Source: Naegleria gruberi (Eukaryota). Taken from it: DNA of 64,000 nucleotides. Positions 5,090-60,700 of the stretch are shown piece by piece (the first letter of the stretch is position 1; each line of letters begins with the position of its first letter). Where the stretch lies: NCBI GenBank assembly GCA_000004985.1, contig GG738909.1; one strand, 5' to 3'. The position numbers and the translations under genes were made by a program. The notes beneath the pieces are model-generated. The model had not been told where the DNA came from. It saw only the letters and a list, made by a program, of their open reading frames with translations, and searched no databases.

Positions 5090-7816
5090 ATGCAAATGCT
5101 TCACATTTTGATAATAAGCGTTTTCCTCACGTTGTTGACACCAGCCATATGTCAATTTATTCCACCTGATATTGAAGTCAAACCTATTATTACTGGCCTA
5201 AAGGGACCCTCTTCACTCTTTTACCAACACGACAGTCTCTTCATCCTAGCAACTAATCAACAAATTCTACTCAAGACAGACTTTCAATCAAAGCCAAACA
5301 TTATTCTTGGCATTAACAACACTTTTGGATACAATGGAGATGGAAAACTTGCAAAGGACACCACTTTAAGTAATCCTCACGGTTTACATGTGAATGGCTC
5401 GTTCATTTATATTCCAGATAAATGGAGTCAGCGCTTGAGAATGGTCAACAAGGAAACAATGATTGTTCAAACAATTGCTGGAAATGGAATCTGTGGTTTC
5501 AGTGGTGATGGACAAAAAGTTGGAGTGCCAAATACACAATTGTGTAATCCACAAGGAGTTTTTGTGGAGAAAAATGAGATTTATATTGCAGATACTTTCA
5601 ACAATAGAATTAGAAAGATAGATTCGAATAATTTTCTTTCGACTGTTGTAGGGTCTAGCTCAATTGGTGGGTTTTCAGGGGATGGAGGTCTAGCAACAAA
5701 CGCCAAACTCTTTAGACCTGAATCTGTATTTGTGTATATGAATCAAGGCCAAACTGATATATTGATTGCCGACACTTTTAATAATAGAATCAGATTAGTC
5801 AAGAATGGTATAACCTCAACAATAGCAGGCGGAAATACCCAAGGATACAATGGAGATGGTATTCTTGCTAAAGATGCGTATCTATGTCAACCTAGCTCTG
5901 TATTTGTTACAACAGTTGGTGAAAGTCTTATTGCTGATTATTGTAATCACAAAATTAGAAGAATTTTCACAAATGGAACGATAACTAGTTTACCAATACA
6001 GGTCAGATATCCAAAATCCATTTTTCTTGATCAAACAAATGGCAATCTTTACATCTCTGAATTGGTTGATGGGACAGTTCAACAAGTGACATTTTACTGT
6101 AAAGAAGGATACAAATTGAATGATTTTCTTGTATGTGAACCTGTTTGCCAACAATCATGCAATACGAAAGGTAAATGTTTGGCTCCTGATGTTTGTGAAT
6201 GTCAGGACAGATACTATGGTGAGTTCTGTGAGGAGTTTACATGTTTTGGAATCTCAAAGGATCATCCAATGGTTTGTTCTGGACATGGATCTTGTATTTC
6301 TCCTGATTCATGTGAATGTGAAGTTAATTACTTTAACAGTAACTGCTCAGCAACTTCTTGCTTTGGAAAGAACTCAACCGAGCCATCTGTTTGCAATTCA
6401 CATGGTAAATGCACTTTATTCAACACATGTAAATGTGAATTCAACAAATATGGTGGCAATGAGTGTGAAATTCCTCTATGCAATGGAAAAAACTCTTCAG
6501 ATCCCAATGCATGCTCTGGTAATGGATTCTGTAGCACTGTCGTTTCTCCCGCTTCATGCATTTGCACTCGAGATATGAGTGGAGCATATGTAGGATCTGA
6601 TTGTCAATACCCAACCTGTATTTCAATCCCCTCTTACGAACCGAGAGTTTGCAGTGGAAATGGTCGTTGCTATGGATTTAATTTGTGTGAATGCAAAGAA
6701 GGATACGAAGGACTGTTTTGTGAATCAGTTACATGTGGAACTGGTTGCAAGATAGCTGCTTCAATTCCTGCGAGCGTTGTAGTCGGAGTTTGTGGTGTTA
6801 TTAGTTTGGTTTTGTTTCTGACGAGAACGAAACTGAAAGAATTTGCTAAAAAGCTCACATATACTGAACTTAAAGATATAGAGATAGTACCTTATCAACA
6901 TTTCTACATTGCTACAGAAGATGAAAAATACGAATACAAACTCAAAAGAATATTAGGAAAGGGAGGATTTGGTAAAATTTATGTTTTTGATGAGATTAGT
7001 GATGGGCAAACCATTGAAGTTGCAGTGAAAATCGTTGAGTCAGTTGATATGTCTGTTCTTAATGAGCCTACAACTATGAGTAGGTTACAACATACCCATA
7101 TTGTACCTATTCGTCGTTTTACAATTGTTGGTGATGGAAAGTATACTTGTTTAATTATGCCACTGTATCTCTGTGATTTGAGAAAGTGGTCTCAAAGCTC
7201 ATTGATGACCATTGAACTGATTATTGAAATTGTTAAGCAAACTGCCTTCAATATCTGCACAATATGAATATGGTCCATAGAGATCTGAAACCAGAAAACA
7301 TACTAGTTGAATCTCCAAATCCTTCACAGGATACGATCATTGATATATCCTCATTCCACTTGCGTGTTGGCGATTGGGGATCAGCCAGATTCGAATCTGT
7401 TGAGACAAGCAATGGTTTCACAGCACAGTACTGCTCACCAGAACATTTTCAAGAAGGAATAACTTCCTGCAACAAGAGTGATATTTGGAGTCTTGGATGT
7501 ATTCTCTATCAATTACTCTCATCAGATTACGAATCGAAACTAAATGTAGTGAAACAAAAAACTCAAAGTGATGAAGACGATAAGGAAATTAGGGAAACAG
7601 TAAGGGGAATGACCAAACTGGATGATTCATTCAAGCTTAATTCCATGTGTGATTTAATGCTAAATATGATCAAGTTCAACCCAGAGGAAAGGTAAGTTTG
7701 CTTTGAATCTAATAATCTTAATCATAATGGATAGAATATCTGCTGATGAAATATTGCACAGATTGAGTACCATTAATAATCAGTCAATGGATATAGCTCA
7801 GAATTCTGGCAATTAA
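5090..7816 (+). CDS. Receptor-type Ser/Thr protein kinase with a signal peptide, NHL-like repeats, Cys-rich EGF-like repeats, a TM helix and a kinase domain. Contains a 1-nt frameshift at about 7237-7245 and an intron at 7692-7734.
   Basis: - Repeated xADTFNNRIRxI units (NHL-like), then multiple CxCxxxxxGxxC EGF-like modules.
- TM segment VVGVCGVISLVLFL.
- Kinase motifs GKGGFGKIY, VAVK, HRDLKPENILV, DWG and SPE.
- The frame switches from 2 to 1 at a run of three A at 7239-7241. Restoring one A gives ...EIVKQNCLQYLHNMNMVHRDLKPEN.
- Donor GTAAGT at 7692, acceptor AG at 7733-7734, last exon 7735-7816 (...FNPEERISADEILHRL*). Confidence 0.7.
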
Positions 7817-47985: not shown

Positions 47986-50900
47986 ATGACATCTCTCAAT
48001 GTTAATGTGTTTGACGATAGAGGTTCAAACAGTTCTCAAAGTAATTCGAGGGTGCTGCTCTCTCCACCTCAGGGAGCCAACAATTACTTACTAATTCCAA
48101 CCAGTAACTATGCAGGATCATCAGTATGTTCCTCTGACAGACATTCCAAAACTGACATTTCAGGTTCTGAAGTTAATGCGGTAACAAAACTGAAGAACTC
48201 GACTTTGGAGTTTGTACTCTTCATACAAGACAACCAAGTGAAGGAGGGAATCTATGGTTATGTGATAACCTTGTTGATTCACTTGTACATGTTTTGGATT
48301 GGAATTTTTCTACCAAATCTTGGACCAGAAATGATGTACGGAGATTGGGGAACATGGATTTTCTCAGTACTCAACTATGCTATTACTCTCTCATTTGAAA
48401 GGATCCCTTATAAGGGAGGTATTGTATTGGCTTTTATTGGAGTAGGTATTGTATTGGTATTTGTAATTCTATTGATCTGGACAATCTTTGCCTACAAGAC
48501 AACCTCCCAACATTTAAAGAACTCGAGAAGAGCTATTGCCATCTTTTCCAAAGTATTTCCATTCATATCAGTACCTCTCTTGTACTTGATGACATTCTCT
48601 CTTGATTGTAATTATACAGTAAGCTCATCAAATCTGAATAGATTTGAATTCTATTCCCATGAGGTGATCCAATGCCACGATACTAGCAATATTATATTTG
48701 TGGTGGTAATGATCTTGGCCATCCTGTTATTGATTATACTCAATGTATTCTCCATGCTCATTGTACCAAACTGCCATCCTCAAAATATAGCTCCATTTGT
48801 GACCGATAATCCAGTTTTCATGAGCTTGTTAGTTGCCTTCAATCTGTGGCAACTCTTTTTACACTTTATCATTCCAACACAATACTCTTTTATGAGAGCT
48901 ATTGTTCATAGTGTTGGATCTATTATTTTAATTATAATTTTTGCCAAGCTGATTCCATTCATTAGAAGAATTGAGAATAGTATTGTATTTGGTTGCCTGT
49001 TGGCTAGATTAGCTTCGAGTATTGGAGCTATTGTAACTTCTATTGTAAATAACCCATCCCTATCAAAGATACTGCCATCGGTGGATAATACACTTGGTGT
49101 TGGACTTGCAGGTCTAACTATTGGTTTGATTATTATTGGTTTTGTGCTTGGTTTCTCCCTTATGGAATTGTATACGAGATTTATTGTGAGATCTATTAGA
49201 AACTTTGTTCTGGAATGTATTCAATCAGATAATGATGAAACAAATCTAGATTCCAAAGAAACTGAAAAATACATTGAGAAAGAAGCACAAATTATTTATC
49301 AACAGTTGGTTGAGTCAAGAAAATTAAGGCACCTTAGAATATTCTTTAAATTTTCTATGAAATTCAAAGAAAAATATCCAACGGAAAAATCAGAAACGCC
49401 CACACAGCACAATCTACTCGATATTTATATTTGTATTGCTCTGATTAAGGGGTTCTCTTCCAATAACCAATTAGATAATGAGATTATCCTTCTCTCTAGT
49501 ATGATTATTGCAAATTATTTGCCAAACGAGGTCAATTCTACAACATTTGCTCAAGGACTTTTGAAGAAAGCTTTTAAAAGAAGACCATCCACTTACTATA
49601 ATTTATTAATTAGTCTAGCTCAAAAACAAGTAGAAGCAACGGTCTATCAAACCAATCCAGAGAGCAGAAACAATGTTGAAATGGCCAAGCTTATTGGTCA
49701 CTTAGAAAGAAGACAGGATGAATTACGAGCACTTCACAGAGCTTTCTGGAAGGAAATCATGCAAGAAAATATCAATCATGAAAAATGTGAATCTATTATT
49801 GTAAGGATTGGGATATTGTCTCATGAATGTGAAACTAAATTCAAGAATTTAATGCACATTTACAAAAACGACAAGACAGTTCTTCGATGTGTTGCTAAAT
49901 ATGTAGAATCTTTTAAATTCAATAAGGAAGCTGCTCAGGAATTATATTCTGAAGCAACAACAATTGAAGAAGAGGATTCCAAACGAATGAATGCCTCCTC
50001 TAAAAGAAGAATTAAAAAGAACCAAAAGAACAGAGTGCATCCTCAACAAATCAGTCACGCTTTTGAGACGTTATCTTATGGTGATGCTAATCATCATGAG
50101 GTAGAGTCCACTGTTGTAGGAGATTTGAATAACGATTTTGGTGGTGTTGAGAATAATCCAGAATTGAAGAAGGAGCTTCTGTTCAGGAATGCATTGGCCA
50201 TCTCACATAAGAATCATTCACATCTCACAATGTTTTTCATTTTCATTGTGCTATCCTTGCTAATTTTGGTTTCAACATTAGTAATGAGCTTGATGTTTTC
50301 GAATTATGTTACTGAGAGCGTACTTGTTGTGGATACTGCCTGTACACCGATTGCATCTGCTATTCGAATTGTTAGTGGAACAAGAAGTTATCAGAGCTCT
50401 CTATTGTTGTACAGTTCCAATTCATCAGCTTGGCCTTCATTATTGGCAGAATATGGCTACTCGAGCCTTTCTGAATTCAAGAAAGCTCACAAGAAAGAGC
50501 TAAGGGATAATATTGATTACTTAATTCTATTGAAAGAGCTAGCACAAACAGCCAAGTTTACCACTGATATGTACTCTGAATTTCATGAATACTACTATAG
50601 CTTTAATCAACCAAAGGCAAATACTAATGGTTTGGAAAAGATTTACAACTCTACCACAGCTATCAATATTACCATTGCAGATATTACTAATTTGGCTATA
50701 ACCTATTCAGAGCAGATTTACAAATTTGAAGATGAGGATTATCTACATACTTTCAGCAGTTATCCTTTCATGATACTATTCAACAATAGGAATATTATGA
50801 CAGCAGCTTATTCTTCATTCTGTTACAAATTTGTTGAGGAATCCAAGAGCTATACCAAGACGATTTCCAATACTTTTATTATTTACTACTCTTGCTCAAT

Positions 50901-53257
50901 TGTTGTTTATTTTACTTACACTGCTATTTATTTGTGCTTTGCAAGATTGGATTTGTCTTTTTTGAAAAAGCTTATTGTTTTATTGGAAAAGAATGTGTCA
51001 AAGCATGAAGCAGGAAAAATGTATCACAATTTGGGCAAGCTAGTCCAAGATGACAGCTCTGTAAGACCGGCCAAGAACTCTGCTTTATACCCTAGGAATG
51101 TTGTGGTAGGATTGGGAATTGTGACAGCAATCTGTGTTGCACTCTGTGCTGGTTTGTTCCTAGCTCAAACTCTCAGCAATTCTCAATACAGCTTTGAGTC
51201 CTATGTCACCATGAGGGATGCTTTCAATGCATTAGAAAACTCCCAATATATTGCAGAAGCGATAACTGAGGAATTCATTAATTTAAAAATTGCTGACAAA
51301 ACATTTATTAATGGATTGGTTTCATCTAATACTGAGCGTTCTGAATCTATTCAAGCATCAATTAAGAAATTAAGATTCTATTGGAATATGTGCATGTATG
51401 GGTCTAATTATTACCCAGATGAGACTCTTGTGATTGGTCTTTTCGAAAAGACTGATTTGATGATAAAGGGAGAAGCTAATTGTACATTTGAAAAGATGAT
51501 TTCACATAATTGCAGCATTGGTGTTGATAAATTGATCACAACTTACACGACTAAAGCCACACAACTCACAGAAGATATTGATCTCAAATCAACAACATTT
51601 GAATCATTATTTGATGACTATTTGGTAGTTAGTTTTTTCTCTACCTATGTAAGCAATTCATTACTGTCATTTTCAGATGTATTTGCTATGGCTGCCTCTG
51701 TTCCATCAGACAAGTTGGTGATTCCATTTGCCATTCTTGGATTTTTGACTTTGTTTATATTCTCGATTGGTATTTACATGTCAATGGGAAAGTATTTCAA
51801 TTCAGTCCAACAACTGCGTCTTCTTTTCAATTATCTACCTCTAGACTTGATGGACTCAAACGAAAATATTAAGAATTATATTGTACATCATCATCTTCCT
51901 GACTCATTCTCAAACATTTTTAGAAGAAAGAAAGGTTCTTCATCAGAGGGCGACTCAAAAGTTCGAAGCATTTTGAACGCATCTGTAGATGGAGCAGTGA
52001 TGTGCAGTGGAGAGAAGGTTGATATTGAAATATTCAATCCAGCAGCTCAAAAGATATTTGGATATAATCAAACAGAAACGATTGGCAGATCATTGTATCA
52101 ATTATTTGAAAAGAATGAGCAATCGAAAATTAAAAACCTCATTGATGAAATGTTAGTGAATGCAGCAAGAGGTGATTCGAAAGGAGATTCTATTGAATTG
52201 GAATGTATCAGAAAGAATCAAACAAGCTTCCCATCACGTGTCAATATTTTTGCCACTCTTCACAATTCTCAAAGTGTTGTCACTTGTTTCATTAAGGATA
52301 TTACAACAGAGAAGAAGCATAATTCATTATTGACAGAAGAAAAGAAACATTCTGAAGAATTATTATTGAATATTTTACCAAGTGCAGTGGCAAGTAAATT
52401 GAAATCAGGAGAAACTTATATTGCAGAGAAATTCAATGATGTTTCATGTTTTTTTAGTGACATGGTTGGATTTACAAAATTAAGTACTGGAATTCAAGCA
52501 TCTGAATTGGTTCAAATGTTGAATGAAATTGTAATTGGATTTGATGATTTGACAGACAAATATAATTTGGAAAAGATTAAAACGATTGGAGATTCATATT
52601 TTTGTGTGGGTGGATTACATGGATTAAATGCACAATCAGATCATCCTGAAAGAATTTTGAGATTTTCCATTGATACATTTGATGTTTTACAAAGATTTAA
52701 TTCAAAATCAGGAAAACAACCATCTGAACAAATTAATATTCGTGTTGGTATTAATACTGGAAGTGTTATTGCAGGTGTTATTGGGAGGAAGAAATTTGCC
52801 TATGTATGTTTTTAATTTCAACATTTTAACATTTTATTGTGTAAATTGTACATTTTCAATATTTCATATTAATATATTAATTAAATAGGATTTATGGGGA
52901 GATACAATTAATACAGCTTCAAGAATGGAATCTAATTCAATTCCAGGAAGAATTCAAATTTCCAGATCAACCTATGAAAGAGTTTATGATTTGGGTTTCA
53001 CTTTTGAAGAAAGACATTTAAATGTGAAAGGAAAGGGTGAATGTATTGCTTACATGTTGCATGAGAAACATCACACTCCAGCTCTTGTTCCATCCTTCAC
53101 TGACATGTTGAGAACAAGTTTAAACATTTTACAAAAGAAAAATTCTGCAAATCTTGAAACATTGAATGAACCCAAAACACCAACAAGAAACAATGATAAT
53201 ATTACCTTGACAATCAATCAAGAAGCCTACCTATCTCCAAATAATACTTTGGAGTAA
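47986..53257 (+). CDS. Multi-TM, PAS-domain, class III adenylyl/guanylyl cyclase, copy 2; join(47986..52803, 52889..53257), about 1728 aa.
   Basis: Same architecture as copy 1. Intron GTATGT at 52804, acceptor AG at 52887-52888 (85 nt), splitting FAY|DLWGDTINTASRMES. There is no intron at the position of the copy-1 41-nt intron. Confidence 0.8.
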
Positions 53258-56550: not shown

Positions 56551-58877
56551 TTATTCAATTGTAGTCTTCATGGTGCTTTCCATAAATTTCAAGTAGATTT
56601 GAGTTGTAATCTCAGTCAATTCATCAAATATATCTTCAAAAGTTGGTCTCTCTTTTGGATCAATGTGTGTACATTTCATTCCCAATAAATGAATCTTTTG
56701 AGCTTGTTCTTGAGTGAGGAAATTGAACCTCTCCACCAATTGAACTACTGAAATAAAACTTCCAAAAACATCTGCCATATTGGCAGGTCTATATCCAGAA
56801 ATGAGTGTGTGCATTGTGACTCCAAAACTGAAAATATCCAAAGCTCTAAACACAAACACTGTGTCTTGTTGCTTATTTCTCAATTCTGGTGCCATGTAAT
56901 ATAATGTGCCAGCAGTGGTGCAGGAATAGGTTTCAGGTTTGTCCACTGTGAGAGAAACATCAAAATCTGACAATTTGACATTATCAATAATCTCAACTCC
57001 ATCAATTCTCATCTTTTTCACCAAAATATTATTTGGTTTAATGTCATAATGAATCACATTCTTGGAATGTAAATATTTCATTGTATCTGAAACCTTGACA
57101 AGGGAGAATAATATTTGAACAAGTTCAATAATTGTTGGTTCAGTTATTGAAAATGAAGATAATGAATCATCCATCTTTTCCATGAATAAATGTTCGATTC
57201 CATCTTGATTATAGTGATGTAACAATTTTACAACACCATCATGTTCACAAATTCCATTCATAATTTCAATCTCACTCGTTCCAATATTATTAGAAATTTT
57301 CTCTGCAACAGGAACATTATTCATCAACACTGAATATACAGCTCCATTTGCCCCATTTCCAAGATATGTTCTATTGGCTCTGTTAATGACAGCCCCTTCA
57401 ATGACTGTGGCTCTATTTAAAGTGATAGTTGAAAGAGTTTCTCTTTTCTTCAATCTGCAAGATAAAATATATGACATATTATATGAAAAATATTCTCCAA
57501 GAGACTTGAACTCATCCAATTTCCTATTCAGCATTAAATCAGCTTGTGGAGCCAACATATATTTGAGAATGCTATTATTTGTGATGATTTCTGATTGATT
57601 GTCCACAAGTTTTGGCAAAGTGTAAATGTTAATGAAATATCTGAATGGCTCAATCTCCCCTTCTGACAATAATTCAACCAATGATTCTGCTTCAACACCT
57701 GAACTGAGTAATATTCTGACATCATGGTGATTTCTCTAATTGTAGATGCGAGTTTTTATAAGTATTGGAAATTTTTACAAATAACAAACCTTAATTAGGT
57801 GATGAGCAATTAATAATCTCATAATTTTTGTAAAATTATTAGTTTTGGCAATTTCAAATGGTGTTTCTCCCTTTCTTGGTGTGAATATTGATTTTTTAGC
57901 AAACAAACTTACACACTAATAACCATAAATGGTATTCCAAATAATTTACACTCAAAAACTTACTGACTATTCAAAAAGTTAGTTGGTTATCTTTAATAAA
58001 TACATACACACTGTGAAATGGTTGAGAAATGATCGATTACGAAATCAACTTACATTCTTTTAATTGTTAATGCTTCATTGTGGAAATGAAATTAAACTTA
58101 CATGCTTTAAAATAATTAATTTGAAAAGTAATTGAAATACTTACACACTATAAAAACGTCAGTAAACTCCAATAGATCACTATCAACTTACACACTAATC
58201 AAATTATTCCTCTGCAAAACAACTAATAAGCATACTTACTCCCTAAAATCTCTTATTCGAAACTGTATATGCTAAACTTTACTTACTCCCTAAAACCATT
58301 CAAAATCTCAAATCTACAAATCTACTTACTCCATTCTTATAATCAACCAATGGCATACTCTTCAGTAAATATTTCACAACTTTAACTTGTCCATATTTGC
58401 AAGCAATGTACAACAAAGTTCTCGCTGGAGGATAGTTCTTATTCTTCTCTGGAATTAAAACATCAAGAAGTGATGGTAAATCTTTCATTCGACTCAATTC
58501 TTTCACATTTCCTTGTTTCACCCAATAGGCAGCCAATAATGCATTGTACATTTGTGGAAACAATCGAATAGTTGTTAGTGCTGGACTCCATTGGGATGGC
58601 TGCACCAATAGTTGGAAAATAGGATGAGATGGTTGTCGGAAAGGATAATTGGAAGGAAAAGAAAAAGTGAAAACAAATGGCTCCTCCTTTCAAATTCCAA
58701 TAATTCATTCATCATTGATCAATAAATTGATAAATCTATTCGAAATAAACTCACATCAACAATTTTAAAAGTTACTGTCCATTCCGAAAGTTCATTGTCA
58801 TTCTTAGGTTCGACAGTAAAGCCAGGATGTGTCAGTTGTTTAATATCTCGCAATTCTCTCTGTACTCTCTTCAACAT
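56551..58877 (-). CDS. UEV (catalytically inactive E2-like) - ankyrin repeat - protein kinase gene. Exons: 58755..58877, 58330..58686, 57790..57870, 56551..57735. Between the second and third exon lies a 459-nt tract of ten mini-introns.
   Basis: - Exon A: MLKRVQRELRDIKQLTHPGFTVEPKNDNELSEWTVTFKIVD (E2 N-terminus).
- 68-nt intron (GTGAGT..AAAG).
- Exon B: EEPFVFTFSFPSNYPFRQPSHP...SQWSPALTTIRLF. It has the E2 core, including the invariant SQWSPALT, but lacks the HPN...Cys segment. ANK repeats follow.
- ANK exon: GETPFEIAKTNNFTKIMRLLIAHHLIK.
- 54-nt intron.
- Kinase exon: LGNGANGAVYSV, HYDIKPNNILV, DFD, APE. Confidence 0.55.
57871..58329 (-). other. Tandem array of 10 canonical mini-introns (GTAAGT...AG, 40-48 nt) separated by exactly 3 nt, lying in an intron position of the UEV-ANK-kinase gene.
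   Basis: - On the plus strand, ACTTAC (or ACATAC) occurs at 57907, 57958, 58002, 58048, 58096, 58139, 58186, 58234, 58281 and 58324.
- Each is followed by three nucleotides and then CT. Read on the minus strand this is AG-NNN-GTAAGT.
- Donor-to-donor spacing is 43-51 nt. Confidence 0.6.
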
Positions 58878-59786
58878 TCTCACAAATTTTTTTTGATTTA
58901 TTTTGTTTGATTGGTGAATATTAATAGAAAGGAAAGAAACTGTATCAATTTTGATCTACCAATTGAACTAGCGAAACACATCTATTTAAACGAAGAGAAT
59001 TGTTAACTTTTCAGCAGCAACAACTTTATATTCAATCAAAAAGCAATAAAAAAAATAAAGAAACACTCGAGCAAAACCAACACGTGAAAGATGTCATTCA
59101 TTCTTTGTGATTAATCTTGTTGGTGGTACAAAACTTTTTGATGAGTTTCTTAATCAAGTTGACAAAGAGAAACATTCTCCAACAGATTTAGTTTCTCTAT
59201 TTGCATTGACTATTAATATTAATGTCAGTACTTTGGTTGATAAGATTCCCTCCATTACTCCAATTGACTTTCAACAGTAACATCACCACTTAATTCAAAC
59301 CTTACCAAATCAAAACAGATTTGTTAGGAATAATGGAGATTTATTGCTAACAGAAATTTTCCTGAAACTAGTGGACCATTACAACGAGAATGATTGGAAT
59401 TGTAGATTGGACCGAATGAATGATTTTTTCGACCAGAAATTGAAAGATCAACATGTCAAGATAGGGTTTTCTTTCGATGAAGCTCACCTATTATTCAAAC
59501 ATGCCCAACAAAAGGTGTAAGTCAATGGCCAACTAAAGGGGGGTCTCTTCCATGCTGTTTATGAACAAAATCGACAATTTAACAATCCTGTTTTTCTTGG
59601 CTCAACATTTAACATATCAGATGCCAATCTTGATGTCAGTCGAGAAGGAAGACAATTGGTTAGACGTGTTATTGGAACTCTTCAACCATGGCTGTTGCCA
59701 GGAGTTAACACAGCATTGACTCACTTGTTTCTGGTTCACCTCAAAACGTAACCATTTTACATAGAGAATTATTACAAAAATCATAT

Positions 59787-60700
59787 GTGAATTCAAATGA
59801 CAAATTTTCCATTATTAGAGATGCTCTAGATGTTGTTATTCAATACAAGAGAATGAAAAGTTTATCCAGACTGACATCCTTCCTTAATGAAACTAAATTG
59901 ATTGATATAAAAACACACCTATTACGATTATTATTCAACAAGAATCGCGTGTTTGATTTTCGAGAAATAGACTCTGAGTTGGAAAGCACCAATCATTCCT
60001 ATACTTATTCACAAGCATTCATTGAACACTCAATTGCCCATGTTTCGAAATTATGGTTGATGATATGTGGCAATTCATGTCATATGAGTTTAAAGGAACT
60101 GGTGAGGAATTTGAATTGTTCATGGGTATGCTTCTCCTACACGAAAGTACATCATTGAAAGGACAATCCTTTACAAAAAGTCCACTATTTAAAAGTATAA
60201 CAAACTCAACGTTGAACCTAGAATTGGAAGAATGGTCAATCAACATAAAAAGCTTGCTACATGATAGAAATCTCTCAAAGATAACACTTCAAATCACAGT
60301 TGGTAATAGGTTCACTCAATTGGCAAACAATTATTTTAGAAATTCTTTTATAAAACCATATGATGAAGCATGTCCAGATGGAATGTTTTATTTAAAACAT
60401 CATCAAGAAGAAAAGTATCAATTGGTAATATGTGCCATGACCTTAATTGCTGATCCTGTTACTGACAGGCTACAACCAGATAAGGCTCTCAATTTGCTCA
60501 AAACATTAGTTCTCTACTCTGGAAAAGATGAATCAGAAATTCACACAGAAAACTCTGCTATTGGATGGATTATTGCTCCAAATATGGATGCAAATACGAT
60601 CAGTCTAACAAATTTGCGAAATTTAAAGCAAACACCAACATCTCAAGCTCTATCTTCACTTGAAAATGGTTCTTTGAAATTAATGGTTACAGAGCTCTAG
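59787..60700 (+). CDS. Hypothetical protein in two overlapping frames (apparent frameshift near 60026-60052).
   Basis: Two same-strand ORFs overlap in different frames. No motif is recognised and no intron candidate was identified. Probably one gene with an indel, or two small genes. Confidence 0.3.

What the first reader, a model, noticed from the sequence alone, without database searches (positions are those of the whole stretch)
56551..58877. UEV (E2-variant) - ankyrin - protein kinase domain architecture
A single same-strand gene model links three parts: an E2-fold domain, ankyrin repeats and a protein kinase domain.

- The E2-fold domain keeps the N-terminal helix, the FPxxYPFxxP block and the invariant SQWSPALT. 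It has lost the about 17-aa HPN...Cys active-site segment, so it is UEV-like and inactive.
- Ankyrin repeats follow.
- The kinase has atypical catalytic motifs: HYD for HRD and DFD for DFG.

The intron phases are consistent across all junctions. A ubiquitin-E2-variant fused to an ANK-kinase is not a standard metazoan architecture. It suggests a ubiquitin- or UBC-binding signalling kinase, possibly a pseudokinase.
Basis: partly seen in the sequence, partly recalled or inferred. Interest (0 to 1): 0.55.

Follow-up and report, generated by a model that had tools for sequence, protein, structure and literature searches.

The report
Dead E2 fused to ankyrin-kinase
In the amoeba Naegleria gruberi, one gene joins a shrunken, catalytically dead ubiquitin-conjugating (E2) domain to ankyrin repeats and an apparently active protein kinase; I found this combination nowhere else, the public gene model misses the E2 part, and the gene also holds a strange chain of ten tiny introns.

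Summary
On the minus strand, 58877-56551, a four-exon model in which every junction is phase 0 encodes about 581 aa. It has three parts: a UBC4/5-derived E2 relic (aa 1-99), 3-4 ankyrin repeats, and a protein kinase.

- **E2 relic.** Homology is solid: hhalign 98.5%, E 1.8e-15; Pfam UQ_con 29.7 bits against a cutoff of 27. The catalytic Cys, the HPN Asn, about 19 core residues and the C-terminal helices are gone.
- **Kinase.** It keeps GxGxxG, the VAxK Lys, the αC Glu, the HYD Asp, Asn, the DFD Asp and APE. It is therefore a non-RD kinase with a DFD motif like MNK, not a pseudokinase by the usual rule.
- **Source and public model.** The window is Naegleria gruberi NEG-M, not a metazoan. The gene is already public as NAEGRDRAFT_73958 (D2VY37, 474 aa). 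That model starts at Met87 and skips the second ankyrin exon, so it hides the E2 part.
- **Homologues.** No protein among 1.84 billion representatives shares this E2 variant. It looks like a lineage-specific chimera.
- **Limits.** I could reach no transcript data, and function is inferred only.
- **Unexpected.** The ANK1-ANK2 intron is a chain of ten 40-48-nt GTAAGT...AG units, each pair separated by exactly 3 nt.

The parts
58755..58877 (-). Exon 1 (aa 1-41). It encodes E2 helix α1 and strands β1-β2 (MLKRVQRELRDIKQ...WTVTFKIVD). The ATG is at 58877, the donor is GTGAGT at 58754, and an in-frame stop lies 7 codons upstream of the ATG.
   Evidence: codon-usage log-odds 0.215 per codon in frame 0 against -0.9 and -1.2 off frame
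58687..58754 (-). Intron 1: 68 nt, GTGAGT...AAAG, phase 0. A TGA one codon upstream of the acceptor prevents any longer exon 2.
   Evidence: read directly from the sequence
58330..58686 (-). Exon 2 (aa 42-160), a single 119-codon open stretch. It carries the rest of the E2 relic (FPSNYPFRQP, SHPIFQLLVQP, SQWSPALT, helix α2) and the first full ankyrin repeat (TLLYIACKYGQVKVVKYLLKSMPLVDYKNG). The public model starts inside it, at Met87 (58551).
   Evidence: chance of an open 119-codon stretch at this composition is 1e-4
58513..58877 (-). E2 (UBC4/5-class) relic, aa 1-99, with intron 1 inside it. It keeps α1, β1-β3, the YPF loop, HP, the WSPALT loop and α2. It lacks the catalytic Cys (Phe65 in that column), the HPN Asn, about 19 core residues in three gaps of 5, 8 and 6 aa (MAFFT instead places a single 14-aa block plus the 5-aa gap), and helices α3/α4.
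   Evidence: Pfam UQ_con 29.7 bits; PDB phmmer; hhalign 98.5%; alternative gap placement; AF2 with an E2 alignment, pLDDT 81-94 for aa 1-100 and 77 for aa 101-110; Foldseek top hits are UbcH5. The model is led by the alignment it was given.
57871..58329 (-). Chain of ten mini-introns of 40-48 nt. There are 9 GTAAGT donors and 1 GTATGT donor, at 58329, 58286, 58239, 58191, 58144, 58101, 58053, 58007, 57963 and 57912, and each unit ends in AG. Neighbouring units are separated by exactly 3 nt: GGA GGA TGT TGT CAT AAT TGT TCA TGT (G G C C H N C S C). Most ways of pairing these donors and acceptors keep the reading frame.
   Evidence: AGNNNGTAAGT: 9 hits in the window, 8 of them here, 1.1 expected; only AG and GTAAGT are conserved; no tandem repeat; the public protein reads G-C-H-N-S-C here
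57790..57870 (-). Exon 3 (aa 161-187), the second ankyrin repeat GETPFEIAKTNNFTKIMRLLIAHHLIK. Acceptor aaag|GGA, donor AAG|GTTTGT. The public model skips it. An in-frame alternative starts at 57915, because the tenth mini-intron is 42 nt and open.
   Evidence: Ank_2 scores 40.5 bits with this exon and 28.7 bits with the public path; codon log-odds 0.337
57736..57789 (-). Last intron: 54 nt, GTTTGT...TTAG, phase 0.
56551..57735 (-). Exon 4 (aa 188-581 plus TAA). It holds the ankyrin-like terminal helices, a linker of about 100 aa with no domain match, and the kinase domain.
   Evidence: The related-strain contig L001 is 98% identical. This exon is less diverged than the downstream spacer (17/1185 against 17/333 substitutions, p = 2.5e-4). 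dN/dS is about 0.47.
56623..57366 (-). Protein kinase domain (aa 311-558): GNGANG 57360-57343, VAEK 57309-57298, αC Glu in SEIEIM 57276-57259, HYDIKPNN 57051-57028, DFD 56967-56959, APE 56892-56884, DPKERP 56661-56644.
   Evidence: Pfam Pkinase 4e-32 and PK_Tyr_Ser-Thr 8e-26; PDB alignments to CDPK2, ASK1, RIPK1 and MNK2; the paralogue P0002 shares HYD and DFD; coordinates

Best explanation
This is one real Naegleria gruberi gene, a corrected and 5'-extended version of NAEGRDRAFT_73958. It encodes a lineage-specific chimeric signalling kinase.

**Shown by the sequence**
- The N-terminal 99 aa descend from a UBC4/5 (UBE2D)-type E2. They cannot conjugate ubiquitin: there is no catalytic Cys and no HPN Asn, either β4 or the active-site loop is deleted (depending on gap placement), and α3/α4 are missing.
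- This module is joined through 3-4 ankyrin repeats and a linker of about 100 aa to a eukaryotic protein kinase.
- The kinase has every catalytic residue. Its non-RD (HYD) catalytic loop and DFD magnesium-binding motif also occur in a paralogue.

**Inferred**
- The kinase is catalytically active as a Ser/Thr kinase.
- The dead E2 and the ankyrin repeats act as docking modules.
- The blocks the E2 relic has kept are helix α1 (K3, R4, R7), the Phe of the YPF loop (F57) and the W-S-P-A loop (aa 74-77). From my memory of the structural literature, these are the positions canonical UbcH5/UbcH7 use to dock on RING, U-box and HECT E3 ligases and on E1.
- The most likely role is therefore to bring the kinase to a ubiquitin ligase or E1, so that it phosphorylates that enzyme or its clients, or competes with real E2s.

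The gene probably arose in the N. gruberi lineage when an E2 copy was added to the 5' end of an ANK-kinase family member.
For: **Gene continuity**
- E2 relic plus ANK1 share one exon. ANK tail plus kinase share one exon. All junctions are phase 0 with GT-AG.
- ANK2 raises the Ank_2 score from 28.7 to 40.5 bits.

**E2 homology**
- Pfam 29.7 bits; 116 PDB E2 chains; hhalign 98.5%, E 1.8e-15.
- An AF2 model led by an E2 alignment has high pLDDT over aa 1-110 and resembles UbcH5.
- The Cys column holds Phe, and the Asn is deleted.

**Still coding**
- Codon log-odds for aa 1-86 is 0.172 per codon. True ORF windows give 0.272 ± 0.136. Only 0.03% of off-frame windows reach 0.172.
- In a neutral-drift simulation, only about 0.7-2% of sequences stay open at 35-52% amino-acid identity.
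- All deletions are in frame.

**Kinase competence**
- GNGANG, VAEK, Glu, HYD, Asn, DFD, APE and Arg are all present.
- HYD and DFD are shared with the paralogue P0002 at 41% identity.
- DFD is the native motif of active MNK1/2 (PMC3326643).

**Constraint**
- Exon 4 is less diverged than the flanking spacer in a 98%-identical strain (p = 2.5e-4).

**Uniqueness**
- No relative of the E2 variant exists among 1.84 billion representatives, apart from 4 ordinary E2s and 1 unrelated repeat protein, nor in the word-indexed search.
Against: - No transcript evidence could be reached.
- The public model starts at Met87 and omits the E2 part and ANK2.
- dN/dS of 0.47 from only 17 substitutions indicates weak constraint at best. 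The related-strain contig does not cover the E2 exons.
- For the 45 codons of exon 2 upstream of Met87, codon scoring does not separate frame 0 from frame 2 (0.133 against 0.170).
- The single-sequence AF2 model was poor (pLDDT 47). The good model inherits its fold from the E2 alignment it was given.
- UQ_con is just below the Pfam cutoff in the full-length context (26.0 against 27).
- With this much of the core deleted, the relic may not fold as a UBC domain at all.
- The docking mechanism is pure inference.
- No orthologue in any other species supports conservation of the fusion.
Confidence: 0.6

Rival explanations
1. The public model is essentially right. Transcription or translation begins at or near Met87 (58551). 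The E2-like sequence is then an untranslated 5' leader or a promoter-proximal relic of an old E2 duplicate, and the protein is a plain ANK-kinase.
For: - NAEGRDRAFT_73958 / D2VY37 starts at MYNALL....
- The paralogue P0002 is an ANK-kinase with no E2 part.
- No other species shows the fusion.
- The 45 codons just upstream of Met87 are ambiguous in frame scoring.
Against: - The public model looks ab initio. Its protein ids run consecutively along the scaffold (inference). It also omits an obvious ankyrin exon.
- The reading frame is open and coding-like for 86 codons upstream, across a clean phase-0 GT-AG intron, back to an ATG with an in-frame stop 7 codons further up.
- A relic this diverged from E2s would be expected to have acquired stops (about 1% stay open).
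- Any transcript that contains exon 1 would be translated as the fusion.
Confidence: 0.2
2. The locus is a young, drifting chimera or a pseudogene in the making. It may be transcribed but has no selected function. The odd intron chain and the mutilated E2 are signs of decay.
For: - dN/dS is 0.47 with 11 non-synonymous against 6 synonymous changes.
- It is an orphan: no orthologue was found.
- The E2 fold is badly truncated.
- Splicing of ten mini-introns may be inefficient.
Against: - All four exons are open, and the kinase motifs are complete. Its Gly-rich loop is better preserved than in paralogue P0002.
- Exon 4 is significantly more conserved than the neighbouring spacer, and it is intact in a second strain.
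- Codon usage is coding-like in every exon.
- The splice signals of the chain are conserved while the unit interiors are not.
Confidence: 0.12
3. One reading: the kinase domain is a pseudokinase scaffold, because of HYD for HRD and DFD for DFG. The protein would then be a purely non-catalytic adaptor in the ubiquitin system.
For: - Two canonical motifs deviate.
- Paralogue P0002 has lost the GxGxxG loop, so the family may tolerate loss of activity.
Against: - The three residues used to call pseudokinases are all present: VAIK Lys (K333), HRD Asp (D418) and DFG Asp (D444). So are the Gly-rich loop, the αC Glu, the catalytic-loop Asn and APE.
- Non-RD kinases are common (general knowledge).
- DFD is native to active MNK1/2.
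Confidence: 0.08

Closest known systems
UBE2D / UBC4-5 class ubiquitin-conjugating enzymes (Pfam UQ_con, PF00179)
   Same: This is the closest sequence relative of aa 1-84: 37% identity to an E2 profile, with α1, β1-β3, FPxxYPF, HP, WSPALT and α2 all aligned.
   Different: There is no catalytic Cys (Phe65) and no HPN Asn. About 19 core residues are deleted and α3/α4 are absent. The module is fused to other domains. It cannot be an E2 enzyme.
UEV proteins (Mms2/UEV1A, TSG101 UEV, AKTIP/FTS)
   Same: These are E2-fold modules that have lost the active-site Cys and work by binding partners rather than by catalysis (general knowledge). AKTIP even associates with a kinase in trans (from memory).
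   Different: No Pfam UEV (PF05743) match at E ≤ 1. The sequence is closer to UBE2D than to any UEV. It is more truncated than UEVs, which keep a four-stranded core. Here the module is covalently fused to the kinase.
GCN2/eIF2α kinase (RWD domain N-terminal to kinase domains)
   Same: It is the only widespread case I know of (general knowledge) in which a non-catalytic member of the UBC-like superfamily sits at the N-terminus of a protein kinase and serves as a docking module. In GCN2 it docks GCN1.
   Different: The RWD match here is below threshold (E 0.044, 14.4 bits against 22.8). There is no pseudokinase or HisRS-like domain. Ankyrin repeats replace them, and the kinase family is unrelated.
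ANK-repeat kinases: N. gruberi paralogue P0002 (631 aa 'serine/threonine kinase'); by general knowledge also ILK, TNNI3K and plant ANK-Raf-like kinases
   Same: N-terminal ankyrin repeats followed by a kinase domain. P0002 shares 41% identity in the kinase, including HYD and DFD. The best hits outside Naegleria, apart from one Tritrichomonas kinase, are plant STY46/HT1-type kinases.
   Different: None of them has an E2-derived module. P0002 has lost the Gly-rich loop, whereas this protein keeps it.
MNK1/MNK2
   Same: A DFD motif instead of DFG in an active kinase (PMC3326643). MNK2 is among the PDB hits.
   Different: A different kinase family. MNKs keep HRD. Only the motif resembles.
For the intron chain: recursive splice sites (Drosophila) and micro-exon genes (Schistosoma MEGs)
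   Same: In recursive splicing, juxtaposed 3' and 5' splice signals allow stepwise removal. In MEGs, tandem symmetric (3n) micro-exons keep the frame in any combination. Both from general knowledge.
   Different: Here the 'exons' are all exactly 3 nt and the introns are only 40-48 nt, ten in a row. I found no description of such an array. Its splicing is unverified.

Membership tests
Ubiquitin-conjugating enzyme (E2, UQ_con) | Significant profile similarity to the UBC core | tested here: met
   UQ_con 29.7 bits (cutoff 27) for the isolated N-terminus and 26.0 bits in the full protein. hhalign 98.5%, E 1.8e-15. 116 PDB E2 chains matched. Only about 60% of the core is covered.
Ubiquitin-conjugating enzyme (E2, UQ_con) | Catalytic cysteine in the ...G.ICLDIL... 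segment | tested here: not met
   There is no Cys anywhere in aa 1-135. The Cys column holds Phe65, or it falls in a 14-aa deletion.
Ubiquitin-conjugating enzyme (E2, UQ_con) | HPN motif (Asn for the oxyanion or loop structure) | tested here: not met
   SHPI: His-Pro is kept and the Asn is lost. In the MAFFT alignment the motif reads QPS.
Ubiquitin-conjugating enzyme (E2, UQ_con) | Complete α1-β1-4-α2-α3-α4 core | tested here: not met
   Gaps of 5, 8 and 6 aa. α3/α4 are replaced by ankyrin sequence.
UEV (E2 variant) | UBC-like module lacking the active-site Cys | tested here: met
   This holds in the generic sense only.
UEV (E2 variant) | Sequence membership in a UEV family (Pfam UEV PF05743, or the Mms2/Uev1 clade) | tested here: not met
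   No UEV family among Pfam hits at E ≤ 1. The nearest relatives are catalytic UBE2D-class E2s.
UEV (E2 variant) | Binds ubiquitin or a partner E2/E3 | not testable with these tools
   Needs binding assays.
RWD domain | Profile match above threshold | tested here: not met
   RWD E 0.044, 14.4 bits against a cutoff of 22.8.
Ankyrin repeat | At least two consecutive ANK profile matches | tested here: met
   Ank_2 40.5 bits (cutoff 27.3), Ank_3 34 bits and Ank 30.7 bits with exon 3 included.
Eukaryotic protein kinase (active) | Pkinase profile plus Gly-rich loop, β3 Lys, αC Glu, catalytic Asp and Asn, Mg-binding Asp, APE | tested here: met
   Pkinase 112 bits. GNGANG, VAEK, SEIEIM, HYDIKPNN, DFD and APE located. 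Enzymatic activity itself was not tested.
Pseudokinase | Loss of at least one of VAIK-Lys, HRD-Asp, DFG-Asp | tested here: not met
   K333, D418 and D444 are all present.
RD kinase | Arg preceding the catalytic Asp | tested here: not met
   HYD, so a non-RD kinase. The same motif occurs in paralogue P0002.
GCN2-type kinase | RWD + pseudokinase + kinase + HisRS-like architecture | tested here: not met
   Only UQ_con, ANK and one kinase domain were found.
Spliceosomal introns (the ten units of the chain) | GT...AG boundaries, consensus donor, length in the local intron range, frame kept | tested here: met
   9 GTAAGT plus 1 GTATGT donors. Unit lengths are 40-48 nt, against other introns in the window of 41, 46, about 52, 54 and 68 nt. 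All spacers are 3 nt.
Spliceosomal introns (the ten units of the chain) | Removal seen in transcripts | not testable with these tools
   No N. gruberi transcript contigs were retrievable. The public protein contains six of the 3-nt exons, but its evidence type is unknown.

The most novel reading that the evidence does not exclude
The 459-nt stretch between ANK1 and ANK2 (58329-57871) is not one intron. It is a working chain of ten normal-sized Naegleria introns separated by nine 3-nt exons, removed one after another in the manner of recursive splicing. Each unit adds or skips one codon (G, G, C, C, H, N, C, S, C). The gene could then produce a combinatorial series of in-frame linker variants in the hairpin between two ankyrin repeats of a dead-E2/kinase fusion protein. 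As far as I know, this would be the densest array of micro-exons described.
Probability: 0.35. Interest if true: 0.75.

Novelty: new variant of a known kind. Interest (0 to 1): 0.42.

Why it matters
- **A direct link between two signalling systems.** If the fusion is translated, it hard-wires an E2-shaped docking module to a protein kinase. That is a direct physical link between the ubiquitin machinery and phosphorylation, which in other organisms is made only in trans or through the distantly related RWD domain of GCN2.
- **A natural experiment.** It tests which E2 surfaces can be kept when catalysis is discarded.
- **An annotation fix.** The public Naegleria gruberi model (D2VY37) appears to be truncated at the 5' end and to lack an ankyrin exon.
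- **The mini-intron chain.** If it is spliced unit by unit, it would interest people who study splice-site recognition, recursive splicing and intron gain. It shows how far exon size can shrink under intron definition.

Tried and rejected
1. The word-indexed homologue search with the N-terminal 160 aa found no scorable candidate.
2. Two JGI metagenome scans gave nothing for the E2+ANK1 part and only remote kinases for exon 4.
3. The exhaustive HMMER search of 1.84 billion representatives with aa 1-126 gave five weak hits: four ordinary E2s and one unrelated repeat protein. None had the deletion or a kinase.
4. Single-sequence AF2 was uninformative (pLDDT 47). The second model used an E2 alignment, so it shows compatibility with the fold, not independent proof.
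5. The afdb50 fold library was not available, so the search for an architecture-level match (UBC followed by ANK) was not run.
6. Exact-protein look-ups of N. gruberi loci returned no genomic or transcript contigs. Neither full-length model, with or without the micro-exons, is in the protein collection.
7. My first exon-3 acceptor (57915) was replaced by 57870. That gives the canonical G-x-TP start of an ankyrin repeat. Both are in frame, and Pfam scores do not separate the variants (40.5, 37.5, 39.5 and 40.0 bits).
8. I considered that the chain might be a tandem DNA repeat. I rejected this: TRF finds none, the unit interiors are no more alike than shuffles (0.547 against 0.528), and only the splice signals are conserved.
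9. I first concluded that the gene was unannotated, because one search showed no identical N. gruberi protein. That was wrong: the public protein was hidden inside the 90% cluster of a metagenomic representative.
10. Literature searches found no description of an E2-kinase fusion or of Naegleria micro-exon chains. The key review of the E2 fold (Burroughs et al. 2008) is not held.
Full report
**Source and context**

Three window ORFs are identical to GenBank proteins of Naegleria gruberi NEG-M: NAEGRDRAFT_73938, 73941 and 73960, on a 250,472-bp scaffold. The window is therefore from a heterolobosean amoeboflagellate, not a metazoan. It is about 33% G+C and gene-dense, with short introns. Other introns I could recognise in the window are 41, 46, about 52, 54 and 68 nt long.

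**Gene model**

The gene lies on the minus strand.

| Feature | Coordinates | Content |
|---|---|---|
| Exon 1 | 58877-58755 | 41 codons; first ATG after an in-frame stop; donor GTGAGT |
| Intron 1 | 58754-58687 | 68 nt |
| Exon 2 | 58686-58330 | 119 codons |
| Intronic stretch | 58329-57871 | 459 nt |
| Exon 3 | 57870-57790 | 27 codons |
| Last intron | 57789-57736 | 54 nt |
| Exon 4 | 57735-56551 | 394 codons plus TAA |

The product is 581 aa if the 459-nt stretch is removed whole.

**The three parts**

Pfam on a first version of the model (596 aa, exon 3 starting at 57915) gives Pkinase 4e-32, PK_Tyr_Ser-Thr 8e-26, Ank_2 2.5e-7 and UQ_con 26.0 bits. UQ_con reaches 29.7 bits (E 5.4e-7, cutoff 27) when the N-terminus is scanned alone. 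Only profile positions 1-63 of 140 are matched.

phmmer against PDB sequences finds 116 distinct E2 chains. UBE2D-class chains dominate the list, and the best hit has E 9e-6.

A profile-profile comparison with 29 canonical E2s gives 98.5% probability and E 1.8e-15, with 83 aligned columns at 37% identity. The E2 ancestry is not in doubt.

**What is left of the E2**

- **Retained:** helix α1 (MLKRVQRELRDIKQ), β1-β3, FPSNYPFRQP, an HP dipeptide, SQWSPALT and helix α2.
- **Lost:** 5 aa of the β2-β3 loop, and a net 14 aa between YPF and SQW.
- **Gap placement:** HMMER and hhalign place the 14-aa loss as an 8-aa gap (strand β4) plus a 6-aa gap (NxxGxx), with Phe65 in the catalytic-Cys column. MAFFT places it as one 14-aa block that removes the whole active-site loop.
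- Under either placement there is no Cys and no HPN Asn. After α2 the sequence runs into ankyrin-like helices instead of E2 helices α3/α4.
- **Structure models:** a single-sequence AF2 model was poor (pLDDT 47) but showed the α-β-β-β order. A model built with an alignment of 106 E2s gave pLDDT 81-94 over aa 1-100 and 77 over aa 101-110. Its best PDB matches were UbcH5 structures. That model is led by the alignment, so it shows only that the sequence is compatible with the fold.

**Is the E2 part coding and part of this gene?**

1. The C-terminal half of the relic and the first full ankyrin repeat are in the same uninterrupted exon. A random 119-codon open stretch has probability about 1e-4 at this composition.
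2. Codon-usage log-odds, trained on 18 long ORFs of the window, give 0.172 per codon for aa 1-86 in frame. True ORF windows average 0.272 ± 0.136, and off-frame windows average -0.70, with 0.03% reaching 0.172. Exon 3 scores 0.337 and the intronic chain -0.46. The 45 codons just upstream of Met87 are ambiguous on their own.
3. In a simple neutral-drift simulation, only about 0.7-2% of sequences remain open once amino-acid identity has dropped to 35-52%. All three deletions are in frame.
4. ANK2 (exon 3) raises the Ank_2 score from 28.7 to 40.5 bits. The ankyrin stack therefore bridges exon 2 and exon 4.

**The public annotation**

The gene is already in GenBank and UniProt as NAEGRDRAFT_73958 / EFC38296.1 / D2VY37, a 474-aa 'predicted protein'. 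It did not show up in my first search because it sits in the 90% cluster of a metagenomic representative.

That model starts at Met87 (MYNALL..., 58551), so it contains none of the E2 relic. After ...VDYKNG it reads G-C-H-N-S-C and then jumps to exon 4, skipping ANK2.

The protein ids 73938, 73941, 73958, 73959 and 73960 run consecutively along the scaffold. That suggests an ab initio set (inference). I could reach no transcript evidence.

**Kinase**

All catalytic elements are present:
- GNGANG
- VAEK (K333)
- the αC Glu
- HYDIKPNN (D418, N423)
- DFD (D444)
- APE
- DPKERP

These were located and checked. HYD makes it a non-RD kinase. DFD is the native motif of the active kinases MNK1/2 (PMC3326643).

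The closest relative is an N. gruberi ANK-kinase of 631 aa (P0002). It is 41% identical over the kinase domain and has the same HYD and DFD, but it has no E2 part and a degenerate Gly-rich loop. By the usual Lys/Asp/Asp criterion this protein is not a pseudokinase.

**Constraint**

An environmental contig (ERR1078381; L001) is 98% identical over 58088-55282.
- Exon 4 has 17 substitutions in 1185 nt. The downstream spacer has 17 in 333 nt, plus indels (p = 2.5e-4).
- dN/dS is about 0.47, from 11 non-synonymous and 6 synonymous changes. This is weak evidence.
- The contig does not reach the E2 exons.

**Distribution**

- An exhaustive HMMER search of 1.84 billion representatives with aa 1-126 returned four ordinary E2s and one unrelated repeat protein. 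None had the deletion or a kinase.
- The word-indexed search and two metagenome scans found nothing closer.
- I found no description of an E2-kinase fusion in the literature.

Within what I could search, the fusion is unique to N. gruberi.

**Mechanism (inferred)**

The residues that survive in the relic are α1 K3/R4/R7, F57 of the YPF loop and W74-S75-P76-A77. In my recollection of the UbcH5/UbcH7 structural literature, these form the surface that docks RING, U-box and HECT ligases and E1. The catalytic centre has been excised.

The best reading is a docking module that takes an active ANK-kinase to a ubiquitin ligase or E1. The nearest analogy is the RWD domain of GCN2. This step has not been tested.

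**The intron chain**

The 459 nt between ANK1 and ANK2 contain ten donors: nine GTAAGT and one GTATGT, spaced 43-51 nt apart. Each unit ends in AG, and each gap between an AG and the next GT is exactly 3 nt. The nine spacers are GGA GGA TGT TGT CAT AAT TGT TCA TGT.

- AGNNNGTAAGT occurs 9 times in the window, 8 of them here, against 1.1 expected.
- Only the AG and the GTAAGT are conserved. Unit interiors are no more alike than shuffles, and TRF finds no repeat.
- The unit size equals that of ordinary introns in this window.
- The related strain keeps the four junctions it covers, with one GTAAGT changed to GTAGGT and no indels.
- Because each spacer is 3 nt, splicing that skips or includes whole units keeps the frame. 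The public model already uses six of the 3-nt exons.

Whether the units are spliced one by one is unknown. If they are, this would be an extreme micro-exon array.

**Verdict**

It is wrong on the pseudokinase suggestion and on taxonomy. The architecture is a new variant built from known parts, in a single species, and without expression or functional evidence.

Noticed in passing
window 58329-57871 (minus strand): A chain of ten 40-48-nt GTAAGT...AG mini-introns, each pair separated by exactly 3 nt (GGA GGA TGT TGT CAT AAT TGT TCA TGT). Only the splice signals are conserved. AGNNNGTAAGT is about 8-fold over chance, with 8 of 9 window hits here. The tenth unit (42 nt) is open in frame.
   Followed up: partly
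window 58551 and 57870-57790 (minus strand): The public model NAEGRDRAFT_73958 / D2VY37 (474 aa) starts at an internal Met. It contains six 3-nt exons and skips a well-scoring ankyrin exon, so it probably needs correcting at both places.
   Followed up: yes
window about 56479-54580 (minus strand): The neighbouring gene encodes a G-protein alpha subunit (Pfam 1.2e-34). It has two short introns near its 5' end and a C-terminal tail of about 250 aa with F-box-like and leucine-rich-repeat-like sequence. Only about 70 nt separate its ATG from the kinase gene's stop codon. The related-strain contig L001 lacks 174 nt (55591-55418) inside it.
   Followed up: partly
window 30087-25112 (minus) and 47986-52815 (plus): Two paralogous genes with TPR (TmcB-like), PAS and adenylate/guanylate cyclase domains. 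The minus-strand copy is split by a 41-nt GTAAGT...CAG intron at 27216-27176. The plus-strand copy is one 1609-aa ORF (D2VY33).
   Followed up: partly
window 5090-7521 (plus strand): A receptor-like ORF with teneurin-type NHL and EGF domains followed by the start of a kinase domain. The rest of the kinase domain appears at 7237-7521, overlapping the end of the ORF by 31 nt, which implies an intron or a frameshift.
   Followed up: no
window 58878-60052 (plus strand): There is no public gene between D2VY37 and D2VY38 (60053-60697). Several plus-strand ORF pieces lie there (59107-59280, 59344-59520, 59787-60158), one overlapping D2VY38. They may be unannotated 5' exons of that gene.
   Followed up: no
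L001 / L002 (ENA ERZ929261, run ERR1078381, project PRJEB11402): An environmental metagenome contains a Naegleria strain about 98% identical to this locus. It could be a source of comparative data if longer contigs can be assembled.
   Followed up: partly
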